Assembly (NCBI GenBank): GCA_012295275.1
Contig: CM022676.1
Span: 16,802,001 to 16,866,000, forward strand
Direction of reading: 5' to 3'
DNA from: Chrysomallon squamiferum
Lineage: Eukaryota; Animalia; Mollusca
DNA: 64,000 nucleotides
The translations under genes and the position numbers were made by a program. Shown in pieces: positions 47,101 through 57,761 of this stretch; within the stretch, counting starts at the first letter, position 1; every line of letters starts with the position of its first letter. Under the pieces are notes generated by a model. That model had not been told where the DNA came from. It ran no database searches and saw only the letters and a list, made by a program, of their open reading frames with translations.

Positions 47101-50100
47101 TGTTTTCCTGCGTCTAATTAACTAGTATGAGAAAATAAAAGTTAAAGTGTTGCAGACAATGTTTATGTTACCACAGCATGCACAGATACAGAATCGCTTT
47201 TAGAACAAAAACAACTGACACTCTGTGTACTTGTTATCGATAGATGATACTGAACATTAAATTACTAGTGTTTGACTGGTTTCACTTGCAGATCAAACGT
47301 CAGTGAATTTACATGCAGTAAATGTTTTCTATCATTGCAGACCAAACTTCTATTACATCTTTCACGTTGAACTCGAAGTCTACACATATAACAGTTGATA
47401 AGCGCACTCCCATGACTCTGAGATGTGAAGTTGACAGTAATCCAGCATCTCACATCAAACTGTTAAACAACTCACACATTCTGCGTGAAGTGAACAACTC
47501 CAAGTCAGTGGAGTACAGCTGGAATGAAGCTGGATGTCTGGATACAGGATTTTATACTTGTGAAGCAGGAAACAACATCAAGTTTGATGTCAGTCAAAGC
47601 GTGCAGCTTATTGGTAAATGTAACTGTTTTGTTAACACAAATTAGAATATCAGTAATAACAAAAATAACAACTTTACACAGACACAGACACAGTAACATA
47701 CACACACATACATTCATGCGGGCGCATATTTTTCTGTCTTATTCAAGTATGGTGATGTTTATCAACGCTAATTAACCTGACTGTGTTTTTGCCTACAAGG
47801 TCCACCGATGATTCCTTCCAATGTGAACATAAAGATAATCAGCTCTTCAGCCATCTCAGTGTCTTGGACAGAGGAATTTAACTGCGGCTTCGTGCAAACA
47901 TTCATAGTACAGTACAGAGAAAGTACGTCAACAGAGTGGAACAACGTCACAGAGAAATTTCTAGAACGTGGTCTACATACAATCCATACAACAGTTATAA
48001 CATCTCTGAAATCAGACACGAAGTATCTTGTGAGGATCTTGGCTTACAACAAATACGGAGTTAAAGGTTTTAGTGATGAAAGGGATATAATGATGGCAGG
48101 CACGTATACCAATAATTAGATAACATACATTTATTTACTGTTATGTATTATAATCATCTCATTTGTTTACATTCTTGCAACAGTGGTAACATTTACATTA
48201 TTCATTTTTGTTAAAAGCAGTAATTATTTGATTTGATTGTGTACATTTGAAAACAAATTGTGATGTATGTTAATAGTTAATAGTAATAATGGTGGTAATA
48301 CTTTATACTTTTTGTTGATTTTCAAATATAGTGCACATCGTATGGCTTTATTTGTTTGTAGTACATTTTTAACTGAGAAACCGTTTTTTTTTTTCTTTTG
48401 TTGTTGTTGTTTCTTTTTTTCCTTAACCGTCTTATGTTTGAAAACAAACTGTTCAAGCGGTATTGGATATAAATCGTGTTAATAAAAATAATTATGATAT
48501 TCTAGTAATAATGGTTTAAATTGTGGTAACACCGTGAGATGTTGGAGAACAAAATTAAACAAGAACAATAATAAATAAATAAATAAATAAATAAATGCAT
48601 TTATTTTCTTCCTTATATCTGTTGTATTTTAAACCTTTATTTTCATTATCAAACACTACTAGTTTTTATGGTATATCTGTATTCAAATGAACAAGTGTTG
48701 TTTCAGATGATGCATCAAATATAAGCTTGACAGCAGTTGCTGTTGGATCTGGATCAGCGATTCTCGTTTTAATTCTTCTTACTACTGCAACTATTTTCAT
48801 ATGCCGTAGACTGAAAACAGGTTGGTACTGTTTGTTTGTTTGTCATTGTTTGTGTGCAAGTGTGTGTGAGTGTGTGTGTGTGTGTGTGAGAGAGAGATAG
48901 AGAGAGAGAGAGAGAGAGAGAGAGAGAGAGAGAGAGAGAGAGAGAGAGAGAGAGAGAGAGAGATCGGGAAATGAGTATCAGTTAAACAATTGTAGATACA
49001 AAAAAAAAAAAAAATAAAAAAAATAAATAAAAACAGCAAAAAACCATTATGGCTAAAGACAACTAAATTAATTATATTATATGCAATTTCATCACCATCA
49101 TAATTATTAATATTAGTATTAATAATAAAATAAAAGGTGATTTTAACAATTACCGTTATTTAATATAAACGAATACTGTGATACTTCTTACCAGGTCAGC
49201 TCATTTTATTAATTGTTTCTTTGTTTTGCTTTTATTTTGGTATATTTTTTTTCAATTCATTTGCTTTTCTTTTTTAGGAAATGCAACAGACGAGGATATT
49301 CATGAAACAAGGTGATACTAACTCGTAGAATAGATGTATATGGCTTATTATTTTTGTAACAATGTGCATGTTGATGTATGTGTGTGTTCCCACAAACAGT
49401 GATTTCATTGTTGCTCATAAATGTACGAGCATATGTATTATGCAAACGAAACGTTATCGATATATTGATAAAACATCGTAACCTACTTTAATGATGATTA
49501 TATTCTAATGTTAAAGGTTTATGTTTTCAAGCGGTTATTTTTGTATTGAAATTAAATATTTGATTTTAAATGACATCCAAAGTTCAGAGGTTTTATAATC
49601 AGAGAACCTTTAACGTAATTACTTTCCCACTAATGTCTCAAATATTTATCTGTCTTCCCCTCTGGTTTATTGACGATCAAGGCTGAGCTGACATATCGCT
49701 GGTCTGGACGTAGGTTCTCAGTGTCAGTTGTGTTAATGAATTGCACTGTTTACGAGGTATATTAAATGTACCGATTCATTAATATTTCTTTCTCTGAAGT
49801 GAGAAAACTGATCCTGAATGATGCAAAATGTGTTACACTAATATCCGTGATAAAAATCTTCTGTAATGGTGATCTAGGAGTAGGGAATCTTTATTACGTG
49901 ACGTTTGCTGCTTTCAAACTCGAAGCTTGAGACACAGTATTCTTTGAAAAAGTCACTGAATGTATCCATCGCTAGTTAGATACAGGTTTTTTATTCACAG
50001 TCCACCGTTATATTATTCAGTATTTTAATTAACTTGAAAGTTTATTCAGTTAGTTATTTTTTATGGTCTTTCTTTTTTTTCTTTTCTTTTTTTTACGTTT

Positions 50101-55233: not shown

Positions 55234-57761
55234 ATGAGGTATGCAATGAAAATGTGATAGCAGCGGCTGTTGGATCTGGATCAGGGACACTTGTCTTAAC
55301 ACTTCTTGTTATTGGAATTATTTTCATATGTCGTAGACTGAAAAAAGGTTCATACTTTTGTTTCTTTGCTGTGTTATTTGTACTGTGCGAGCGTGCATTT
55401 GAGTGCATTTTCCTCTGTGTGTACATGTGGTTGTGCTTATGTACATATATGTGTGTGTGTGTGTGCGTGAGTGAGAGAGAGAGAGAGAGAGAGAGAGAGA
55501 GAGAGAGAGAGAGAGAGAGAGAGAGAGAGAGAGAGAGAGAGAGAGAGAGAGAGAGAGAGAGAGAGAGAGAGAGAGAGAGAGAGAGAGAGAGAGAGAGACA
55601 GAAATGGGTATCAATAATACAATTTGAAAGAAAAAAGATATATTTTTTGTAAGAACAGAAATTATAATATTTATATGTAATTTCATCATTATGATTTTCA
55701 TCTTATTTATTATTATTATTATTACTATTATTATTATTATTATTATTATTATTATTATTATTATTATTATTATTATTATGATGATTATTATTACCAGATG
55801 ACTTCATCTGTATTATGCTTTTGTGGAATACATTTTTACTTTTAGGAACTTTACTAGCAATAAATTAGAATTCAAATTTTTTTGTATTATTTATATTATT
55901 TTTGCATTATTTGTTTTTAGCTTACACCTGCAATTTTTCACTTAAATCTTGTTTTTCAGGAAATGGAAACGACAAACATGAGTATGAAAAAAGGTAATGT
56001 TAACTGAAAGTACAGGTGAATACAGTTTAAATTGTTTGGTAGCTTTGTTGATGCATATATGTCCTCCTTCATAGCAGTCATTACACAGTTCAGTCCTTAC
56101 ACGAGTATATTTATTATGCAAATGAAAGGTTAAGAGTCTCCTGATAAAACATCCTATCCTGTATCAATGTAGATGACATTCTAACGTCCACAATTCAGAG
56201 GTTCAATGATCGGTGAATCTCTAAATGTAAGCAGTTCTCGATTGGTGTCTGAAATATTTATGTGTGTTAACCTCTGGTTTGTTGGCGATCAAGGGTGAGA
56301 TGACATATCTCTGGTCAAGGGAACACTAGGCCGTCGTGGTCAGTTGTGTTAACGAAATTTTGCTGTGTTTTCAAGGTATGTTAAATGTACTGATTCATTA
56401 ATACATCTGTCTCCGAAGTGAGAAAAAGGCTGACAGATCCAAAATGTGTTACACTAGATTCCGTGATAACCATATTCTGTAATGGTGATCTACTAGTAGA
56501 GAATCTTTATGATATGATGTTTGCCACTTTCAAACTGGAAGTCTGAGCACCGAGTTTCCTTTAAGAGAGAGACCGAAGAGATCCATCACTAGCTAGATCC
56601 TGGTTTTCTATTTAGATAACTCGACTGACTTGTAGCTGAATCCATTATCTATGAACGTCACTGTCAAATTTATCTATTAACTTTTCCTATCTTTCTAGCA
56701 AAGAGTAAGTCTCTTCTTTGTGTGTCTGTGTACGATGTCTGTCTGTATGATATCTATATATGCTCTCTATTTTGTGTATTTTGTGTTATCATCCAACAAT
56801 CCACAATTACATTGTTCGGTAATTTCTTTTTAATTAACTTCAAAGTTTATTTCCTATTATATTATTACTAATATATATCTATATATCTATATAGATATAT
56901 ATAGATATATAGATAGATAGATAGAAAGATAAATCATTTGACTGTTAGTTGTTAGAAGGCTGTACGCGAATTTTATTATTAAAATTAAAAAATGAATTCA
57001 CGTAGACATCTGGTCTGTTTCAAATCACAGAAATGACCCAGAACCGCAGTCTCCAACATACGAAAATCTTCCGTATGAACCGGGTAGGTGCAACATTTTC
57101 TTAATAGCTATTAATTCAGTTTTCAATTCTGAAGGTTCAGTATATATTAAGAATCCTGGCAAGGTAATCAGGAAAAAATGATGGAAGGTACACAAGGAAG
57201 TAAAAAATGATCAAGTAAAGAAGGGGCCTGAAATAGAAGACTTAAAAAATATTATGAAATAGCAATGACATAAAATATTGTCATTTATATATTTATATAT
57301 AAAAACGTCTAAGGTTATTTTGTATTACATGATTAATTAGTAAAACTAATTTGCATTATCTCTTGTGATATGTTAGTATAAAATTTAGCATCTTTCTATG
57401 ATAAATACAGATTGTTGTAAAGTAATATTTTGCAGTGTGATATGTTTTATCAGCGCCATAGATTAGTATTTATCTTTCTAGTTGTAAATAGCAACCTAGT
57501 GATGCTACTCTGTCACTTTTCATATTTTCTCTTTTTAATTCTCTATACATTTGATTACTTATGGTTTATCAATGCAGTTTTGTTTGACTGTTTCTTCTAC
57601 GTTTAACTACCGATGCATGCATGATTATTTATGAAAGGTAACATACATGATTATACATGTCTTATTATTTCTGTGTAGGTAACAACGTAGAACGAAGTGG
57701 GTCATTTGAACAGCATCCGTATGAAGTATTTGGAGTCGATGATAACGGACTAAAATATTAA
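55234..57761 (+). CDS. Tail module 2: TM exon 55234-55347 plus cytoplasmic exons 55960-55993, 57031-57083 and 57679-57761
   Basis: [94 protein letters not shown]. All AG/GT sites are intact, sizes 114/34/53/83 nt match module 1, and there is no premature stop. Confidence 0.8.
55450..55598. repeat. (GT)n(GA)n compound microsatellite after TM exon 2 (counterpart at ~48860-48963 after TM exon 1)
   Basis: Directly visible; the shared position supports duplication of the tail block. Confidence 0.95.

What the first reader, a model, noticed from the sequence alone, without database searches (positions are those of the whole stretch)
48707..57761. Two intact, diverged TM+cytoplasmic modules in tandem: candidate paired receptor from one ectodomain
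Seen: module 2 keeps all four exons, splice sites and the frame although its own FN3 exon is reduced to a frameshifted 60-nt stub with no acceptor. Its TM acceptor (55234) has the same phase as the FN3 donor at 48099. Tail 1 has STYTNL (fits ITIM S/I/V/LxYxxL) and HQYEVL, with tyrosines 22 residues apart, similar to tandem motifs that engage SHP-1/2. In tail 2 these read PTYENL and HPYEVF (ITIM consensus lost), with added tyrosines in YEKR, YEPG and the terminal KY. Inference: mutually exclusive terminal cassettes could give inhibitory versus adaptor-recruiting isoforms. The alternative is a recently decapitated paralog.
Basis: partly seen in the sequence, partly recalled or inferred. Interest (0 to 1): 0.8.

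Follow-up and report, generated by a model that had tools for sequence, protein, structure and literature searches.

The report
Headless receptor tail behind intact gene
Behind an intact cell-surface receptor gene, likely of a snail, lies a second intact membrane-and-signalling end whose own outer part is broken by a deletion that other copies in the genome share; it is likely the leftover of a sister gene, and whether the front gene ever splices onto it is untested.

Summary
In detail: two four-exon TM+tail modules, equal in length, both open, 53/93 aa identical. The surroundings change the reading. Upstream of the FN3 stub lies a dead Ig exon (53216-53474, two stops) of a type that gene 1 lacks, so module 2 is the end of a differently built paralog, not a copy of gene 1's own cassette. 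The break is real and not recent: contigs of three studies bridge it, and copies up to about 6.5% apart share both junction and frameshift. In two runs with spliced contigs, module 1's last intron is spliced, and TM2-like exons are spliced from the intact FN3 of other paralogs; this locus's own TM2 start was not seen (weak, contigs drop rare variants). Equal phase is uninformative; dN/dS is 1.0; TM2 has no charged residue and tail 2 no ITAM. Best reading (0.55): decapitated paralog in a birth-and-death cluster of mollusc SRCR-Ig-FN3 receptors. Use as an alternative last cassette stays open (0.25), because the module stayed intact long after the break and cnidarian Alr1/Alr6 do this.

The parts
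37065..45173 (+). Gene 1: four SRCR domains, each split over two exons (37065-37209, 38005-38174, 39015-39159, 39338-39513, 39972-40116, 40785-40960, 44339-44483, 45004-45173); signal-peptide exon not found
   Evidence: Pfam SRCR on 3 exons tested; tblastn finds all 8; chain opens only with a GC donor at 39513 or 39501
46050..46304 (+). Gene 1 Ig1 exon
   Evidence: Pfam ig E 6e-5; splice sites
47341..47619 (+). Gene 1 Ig2 exon (donor 47619 gives K-C-P-P; 47613 is also in phase)
   Evidence: Pfam Ig_2 E 8.6e-9
47800..48099 (+). Gene 1 FN3 exon, GC donor
   Evidence: Pfam fn3 E 3.2e-10
48707..51030 (+). Module 1: TM1 48707-48820, a1 49278-49311, b1 50469-50521, c1 50948-51030 (stop)
   Evidence: last intron spliced in contigs of X8 and X9
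51031..51600 (+). 3' UTR of gene 1 with AATAAA at 51156 and 51166
   Evidence: X8 contigs cover 50947-51184 and 51177-51457
52071..53215 (.). Multi-copy, intron-like DNA leading into the relic; starts behind an ATT run; no coding match found
   Evidence: summed contig depth 638-2559 in X1 against 27-48 for unique pieces; no Pfam hit in 5 readings of 52400-52710; no self-match in the window
53216..53474 (+). Dead Ig exon ('Ig3' of the snail relatives): TGA at 53426 and 53435, start of the domain not matched, donor lost in this copy
   Evidence: tblastn E 7.9e-12 to P0163, 3.7e-11 to P0112; BLASTP 34/75 identical
53501..53560 (+). FN3 stub: last 60 nt, 1-nt deletion, GT donor, joined to the Ig relic by a deletion
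   Evidence: junction bridged in X1, X5, X7
55234..57761 (+). Module 2: TM2 55234-55347, a2 55960-55993, b2 57031-57083, c2 57679-57761 (stop)
   Evidence: 0 indels against about 10 expected
57762..58800 (+). Region homologous to 3' UTR 1; six ATTAAA, no AATAAA up to 59000

Best explanation
Module 2 is the intact membrane-and-tail end of a second member of a large mollusc SRCR/Ig/FN3 receptor family, whose last two outer exons (an Ig and the FN3) are destroyed by a deletion that other copies share, and at this locus it is likely a headless leftover that gene 1 does not normally use. Shown: gene 1 opens as SRCRx4-Ig-Ig-FN3-TM-tail with its own stop and polyA signals; the relic is Ig3 + FN3 stub; the break occurs in several diverged copies. 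Inferred: the break arose once in an ancestral paralog; that gene likely stayed in use by splicing from an exon further upstream over the dead exons, which would explain why TM and tail kept their frame while the copies spread; this copy likely lost its upstream part later, near 52.0 kb, where unique DNA meets multi-copy DNA. Gene 1 likely works as a single-pass recognition or adhesion receptor that signals through two tail tyrosines to SH2 proteins (by analogy, untested).
For: Dead Ig exon at 53216-53474 matches the third Ig of Gigantopelta aegis relatives (E 7.9e-12), and gene 1 has no such exon (Ig2-FN3 intron 180 nt). Stub matches the array FN3 at 54/61 and gene 1's at 51/61; its intron aligns 131/160 to the array and 60/81 to gene 1. 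Junction 53500|53501 is bridged by 31+ nt on both sides in 3 of 4 runs, 3 studies: X1 (depth 232, 2 differences), X5 (22.8, 3), X7 (183 nt, 12 differences, 0 gaps, so the frameshift is shared) (32 pieces listed, 147 not shown; X1 may be the assembly's own source). No variant is listed at either TGA. The link 51583-51751 is at single-copy depth (36.3, 30), so the two-module arrangement is not the amplified unit. In X8 and X9 the only contig over the TM2 bin is a paralog with 10 differences, spliced from an intact FN3 end unlike gene 1's (bin depths 44.4 and 4.05 equal that one contig). 15 of 17 hits are G. aegis paralogs of varied build, 11 on one contig.
Against: The module is fully intact although the break is old: under neutral decay my simulation keeps it intact with P 0.12 at 3% and 0.03 at 5% divergence, so some use after the break must be assumed, and use by gene 1 explains this as well. 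The upstream exon and the second, later loss are inferred; no contig shows them. Absence of the own TM2 in RNA contigs is weak: the window's own letters are also missing from DNA contigs at several multi-copy places (55292, 55301, 53582, 53590 in X1). The two listed places where every X1 contig differs from TM2 (55292, 55301) are both synonymous (table cut, 114 rows not shown). An X8 contig (depth 31) clips on c1 exactly where c1 and c2 diverge, with 8 differences against 10 for c2: a close relative or allele of tail 2 is transcribed.
Confidence: 0.55

Rival explanations
1. Module 2 has been captured by gene 1 as an alternative last cassette: FN3 (48099) splices either to TM1 or, skipping module 1, its polyA site and the relic, to TM2, giving one ectodomain two tails.
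For: Frame and all 7 splice sites intact long after the break; same phase; the FN3-TM2 join gives an open protein; TM2's acceptor is no poorer in pyrimidines than TM1's (0.59 against 0.47); Hydractinia Alr1 and Alr6 splice to alternative TM and tail exons (PMC9546547, passages); a tail-2-like c exon is transcribed.
Against: Needs a 7.1-kb skip over four exons and polyA signals. Own TM2 start not in contigs of X8 or X9 (weak). Phase is shared by all such exons. The GC donor is not special: the SRCR chain needs one too. dN/dS 0.998. The tandem arrangement is single-copy while the relic is multi-copy.
Confidence: 0.25
2. The whole headless unit never worked after the break. It spread by segmental duplication, and this copy's module looks intact through luck or recent gene conversion from working paralogs.
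For: dN/dS about 1; P(intact) is still 0.12-0.24 at 2-3% divergence; many TM2-like donors exist (summed depth 2180 in X1); expressed contigs mix module-1 and module-2 letters, as exchange would give.
Against: Zero indels in 282 nt and all splice sites kept; the expressed TM paralog differs from TM2 at 10 of about 100 nt, so it is not a recent donor.
Confidence: 0.12
3. The two modules are not true neighbours (assembly join near 51.9-52.07 kb), and module 2 ends another gene, for example the Ig-Ig-FN3 array gene that lacks a TM.
For: No listed contig bridges 51853-52071; bin 51921-52089 has depth 3.08 and 0; the window has two N gaps; the array has 5 open units and no TM and is the closer match to the stub.
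Against: The hole lies at an ATT run that the tool skips, and the tool says a hole proves nothing; unique contigs with 0 differences flank it on both sides in X1.
Confidence: 0.05
4. Module 2 is expressed on its own as a membrane-anchored signalling stub from a promoter or first exon in 52.1-55.2 kb.
For: Intact module; low-depth X8 contigs at 52432-52657 and 54847-55010 (depth about 3).
Against: No in-frame Met in the TM2 exon; no usable exon in the relic; no coding match in 52400-52710.
Confidence: 0.03

Closest known systems
Gigantopelta aegis SRCR/Ig/FN3 receptors (XP_041372972.1 = P0001; XP_041373613.1 = P0112; P0163 'DMBT1-like'; P0152-P0166)
   Same: Same domain types and order, single TM, short tails with several tyrosines; YEN in the last 75 aa of 8 of 17 hits; clustered, varied domain numbers.
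   Different: Most carry Ig2-Ig3-FN3; gene 1 has no Ig3. None of the 17 models shows two TM+tail ends, which protein models could not show in any case. Names are automatic; no function was read for them.
Tandem 'DMBT1' expansion of the scaly-foot snail (PMC7142155, PMC7736800; passages)
   Same: Tandem array of 65-70 paralogs with 0-5 SRCR domains in a related vent snail.
   Different: The words immunoglobulin and fibronectin do not occur in the main text of either paper; supplements not read. I did not test whether this gene is one of those copies, and the window's species is not established.
Hydractinia Alr gene family (PMC9546547; passages)
   Same: Ig-Ig-FN3-like-TM-tail receptors in a cluster with pseudogenes, ITIM/ITAM tails, one domain per exon; Alr1 and Alr6 have alternative TM and tail exons.
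   Different: There the alternative splice is shown by RNA reads and starts from exon 2; no SRCR; no sequence relationship tested here.
Oyster CgNCAM1 (PMC11841013; passages)
   Same: Mollusc Ig x3-FN3-TM with two ITIMs, reported to interact with SHIP2: precedent for how tail 1 could work.
   Different: No SRCR; tail 1 has one consensus ITIM and one YxxL; homology not tested.
Drosophila Draper-I / Draper-II (PMC9008705, a review; passages)
   Same: One gene, isoforms with an ITAM or an ITIM tail, the latter bound by Corkscrew.
   Different: Tail 2 has no ITAM; the second end here comes from a paralog; no isoform shown.

Membership tests
Mollusc SRCR/Ig/FN3 single-pass receptor family (G. aegis type) | SRCR and/or Ig domains, FN3, one TM, tyrosine-bearing tail, with sequence similarity to the family | tested here: met
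   Gene 1 opens over 15 exons with one stop, at the end; Pfam; FN3 48-57% identical to P0001, P0112, P0124; Ig2 75-76% of array copies to P0112
DMBT1 proper | SRCR with CUB and zona pellucida domains (as described in PMC7736800) | tested here: not met
   The exon chain runs SRCR-Ig-Ig-FN3-TM with no room for CUB or ZP; the 5' end is not seen
Paired receptors | Inhibitory member with ITIM | tested here: met
   Motif only: STYTNL fits [SIVL]xYxx[ILV]; 5.2% of 20000 shuffles of the tail give one too; binding untested
Paired receptors | Activating member with charged TM residue or ITAM (definition recalled; ITAM consensus as in PMC9546547) | tested here: not met
   No D/E/K/R in the 21-residue hydrophobic core of TM2; no ITAM pattern in tail 2; both tails have YxN
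Paired receptors | Same or near-identical ectodomain on both | tested here: inconclusive
   Depends on the splice 48099-55234, not seen and not excluded
Paired receptors | Opposite signalling shown in cells | not testable with these tools
   Needs pull-downs or cell assays
Alternative terminal TM+tail cassettes (Alr1/Alr6, Draper) | Transcripts joining one ectodomain to each end | tested here: inconclusive
Alternative terminal TM+tail cassettes (Alr1/Alr6, Draper) | Compatible phase, intact sites and frame | tested here: met
   true of any paralog of the family
Decapitated paralog | Own broken ectodomain, distinct from the upstream gene's | tested here: met
   Ig3 relic and stub
Decapitated paralog | Not transcribed, or decaying | tested here: inconclusive
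   No decay in the coding exons; RNA contigs silent but weak

The most novel reading that the evidence does not exclude
A headless TM+tail unit, its dead Ig and FN3 exons left in an intron, has been amplified in this snail's receptor cluster and acts as a plug-in signalling end: any ectodomain upstream can splice onto it. Here gene 1 would make two receptors with one SRCR-Ig-FN3 head, one with an ITIM-type tail and one with five tyrosines, the second end taken from a dead neighbour.
Probability: 0.22. Interest if true: 0.72.

Novelty: new member of a known kind. Interest (0 to 1): 0.4.

Why it matters
On the best reading it is a clear case of birth and death in a mollusc receptor cluster, with one odd trait: a broken ectodomain that was copied several times while the signalling end stayed whole. 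It also suggests that SRCR genes of vent snails filed as 'DMBT1-like' include tyrosine-motif membrane receptors, a point I did not find in the main text of two genome papers. If gene 1 does splice to module 2, it would show a route by which invertebrate receptors gain a second signalling output from a dead neighbour, testable with one RT-PCR.

Tried and rejected
No whole genome is held, so other copies could not be mapped. Protein searches for same-species full-length products: FN3 exon, longer proteins, 0 of 58 candidates; TM2 exon, 0 of 94; weak evidence. No RNA holder listed; X8 and X9 are treated as RNA only because their contigs skip a GT..AG intron. Both read-laying runs used stretches without the long AG and ATT runs, so 48099 was never laid and the junctions 48099-48707 and 48099-55234 could not appear as joints. 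Holes in cover (51921-52089; X8/X9 over the Ig relic) are not used as findings. Assembly artefact or private recent deletion at 53500: rejected. Internal duplication of gene 1's own cassette: rejected (Ig3 relic). The two-module gene as the amplified unit: rejected, link region single-copy. A second dead exon at 52400-52710: 0 Pfam hits in 5 readings, no tblastn hit from 19 relatives; not settled by any feature-based search. Pfam alone missed the Ig relic. GC donor as a sign of alternative splicing: dropped, since the SRCR chain needs one too. Summed contig depth is no copy number; X2 is near single-copy depth at 53611-53948 (37.4, 33.9), so the multi-copy signal is uneven. Earlier findings: 4 look-ups, nothing shown. 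Paper searches with no result; one search listed mostly vertebrate papers (listing only). PMC5856374: abstract and outline only, not used as support. No supplements were read; those of the two snail genome papers may describe domain content of the tandem genes.
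Full report
Check of the observation. The two modules are as described. Each has four exons of 114, 34, 53 and 83 nt with AG acceptors and GT donors, both stay open to a TAA at the same codon, and they share 53 of 93 residues and 217 of 282 nt without an indel. Ten non-coding blocks aligned between the modules hold 56 gaps in 1595 nt, so about 10 gaps are expected in 282 nt and the chance of none is about 5e-5. 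Both frames were therefore under selection for most of their divergence. This says nothing about today. dN is 0.279 and dS 0.280.

Gene 1. Fifteen exons from 37065 to 51030 join into one frame with a single stop at the end: four SRCR domains, two Ig, one FN3, TM and tail. No signal-peptide exon was found between the gap and 37065. AATAAA lies at 51156 and 51166. The closest named relatives are from the vent snail Gigantopelta aegis; 15 of the 17 hits are paralogs from it, 11 on one contig, with varied domain numbers. The window's species is not established; a related snail is my inference.

What lies in front of module 2. Directly upstream of the FN3 stub is a dead Ig exon at 53216-53474. It matches the third Ig domain of the relatives (tblastn E 7.9e-12 to P0163, 3.7e-11 to P0112; 34 of 75 identical) and has TGA at 53426 and 53435. 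Pfam did not see it. Gene 1 has no such exon; its Ig2-FN3 intron is 180 nt. The stub matches the FN3 of the upstream array at 54 of 61 and gene 1's at 51 of 61, and its intron aligns 131/160 to the array against 60/81 to gene 1. Module 2 is thus the end of a differently built paralog, in which a deletion removed most of the Ig3-FN3 intron and the first 240 nt of FN3. Of 27 AG sites before the stub's donor only one keeps the frame, an 18-nt piece.

Age and spread of the break. Nine runs hold the region, none on record as RNA. On 53390-53620, contigs bridge the junction by 31 or more bases on each side in 3 of 4 runs from 3 studies: X1 (depth 232, 2 differences), X5 (22.8, 3 differences) and X7 (183 nt, 12 differences, no gap). 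X2's best listed piece has 23 and 29 bases with 0 differences and does not meet the rule (32 pieces listed, 147 not shown). X1 may be the assembly's own source. Pieces without a gap across the 1-nt deletion occur in X1 (6 differences in 105, depth 162), X2 and X7, while 7 other listed pieces carry the extra base. No variant is listed at either TGA, and most other copies keep the Ig3 donor that this copy lost. Unique pieces in X1 have depth 27-48, and the bins from 52090 to 55440 have 324-3136. Summed depth is no copy number, and X2 falls to about single-copy level at 53611-53948, but several copies are likely. The link at 51583-51751 is single-copy, so the amplified unit is the relic segment and not the two-module gene. 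No listed contig bridges 51853-52071.

Expression. X8 and X9 have contigs that skip the last intron of module 1 (50520 to 50947, GT..AG), so I treat them as RNA. X8's piece has 5 differences in about 290 nt and may be gene 1's allele; X9's has 11 in 164 and is likely a paralog. Over TM2, each run has one contig, 10 differences in about 100 nt, spliced from an intact FN3 end that is neither gene 1's nor the stub; the bin depths (44.4, 4.05) equal these contigs alone, so nothing covers this TM2's first 11 bases. This is weak: the window's own letters are also missing from DNA contigs at several multi-copy places. Against my reading, an X8 contig at depth 31 clips on c1 exactly where c1 and c2 diverge and has 8 differences where c2 would have 10, and the four listed letters of the deepest c-exon contigs are the c2 letters. 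Tail-2-like ends are therefore transcribed from some locus.

How it likely works. Gene 1 likely acts as a recognition or adhesion receptor whose two tail tyrosines recruit SH2 proteins; oyster CgNCAM1, with Ig-FN3-TM and two ITIMs, is reported to interact with SHIP2 (PMC11841013, passages). For module 2, my simulation of neutral decay keeps it intact with P 0.48, 0.24, 0.12 and 0.03 at 1, 2, 3 and 5% divergence (uniform rates, indels scaled from the introns). Copies 6.5% apart imply about 3% per lineage, so some use after the break is likely. The simplest source is the parent gene splicing from an exon further upstream over the dead exons, with this copy losing its front later near 52.0 kb; both steps are inferred (0.55). 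Capture by gene 1 explains the same fact (0.25) and has precedent in Hydractinia Alr1 and Alr6 (PMC9546547, passages), but needs a 7.1-kb skip over four exons and a polyA site. The phase match is shared by all Ig, FN3 and TM exons here and favours neither.

The paired-receptor idea. Tail 1's ITIM is a motif that 5.2% of shuffles also give; both tyrosines in Yxx[LIV] occur in 1.3%. TM2 has no charged residue in its core, tail 2 has no ITAM, and both tails keep YxN at the first tyrosine. YEN is in 8 of 17 relatives. Each extra tyrosine is one base change away. Polarity is unknown, and tail 1 may be the derived form. Draper-I and -II (PMC9008705, review passages) show the principle in an invertebrate, but an activating partner is not evident here.

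Novelty. The family matches G. aegis models and, in kind, the tandem 'DMBT1' expansion reported for the scaly-foot snail (PMC7142155, PMC7736800; passages); neither main text uses the words immunoglobulin or fibronectin, and supplements were not read. Searches for such a receptor or for mollusc ITIM-SHP2 signalling gave 0 papers; searches are by exact words in a partial library. Earlier findings of the scan showed nothing. Verdict: a real feature, most likely a decapitated paralog in a birth-and-death cluster, with an unusual amplified break and an open, easily tested chance of capture. Interest 0.40.

Noticed in passing
window 20500-36225: Tandem array of 2.8-kb Ig1-Ig2-FN3 units, 97-99% alike, between two N gaps. 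Five units join into 1389 open residues with no TM; the sixth Ig1 has a 1-nt loss. G. aegis P0001/P0151 have 5-6 similar internal Ig-FN3 repeats. Its order relative to the SRCR exons across the gap is unverified.
   Followed up: partly
window 18049-20502: A further Ig1 exon (18624-18878, 95% like gene 1's) and the start of an Ig2 exon cut after about 20 nt at 20502, where array DNA begins: a second broken paralog.
   Followed up: partly
window 39513 and 48099: Gene 1 needs two GC donors; the five array FN3 copies and the stub have GT at the FN3 site.
   Followed up: partly
window 400-17800 and 61500-63600: A family of 65-88% similar segments in several copies, mostly direct, with what look like splice sites and very short exons but no long frame; 0 convincing Pfam hits in 7 frames tried across the window. 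Unexplained: could be decayed 5' regions or another relic family.
   Followed up: partly
window 52071-53215: Multi-copy DNA of unknown kind in front of the Ig relic; 52453-52690 looks coding by eye but matched nothing.
   Followed up: partly
window 51300-51630 and 58350-58830: Degenerate AT-rich repeats of about 20 nt in both 3' regions, longer behind module 2.
   Followed up: no
window 44220-44233: A 14-nt stretch between a clean AG acceptor and GTGAGT in the SRCR3-SRCR4 intron; it would shift the frame if included.
   Followed up: no
window 50948-51030 and 55245-55343 (reads): Expressed paralogs mix module-1 and module-2 letters in TM and c exons, as a third subfamily or gene conversion would give.
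   Followed up: partly
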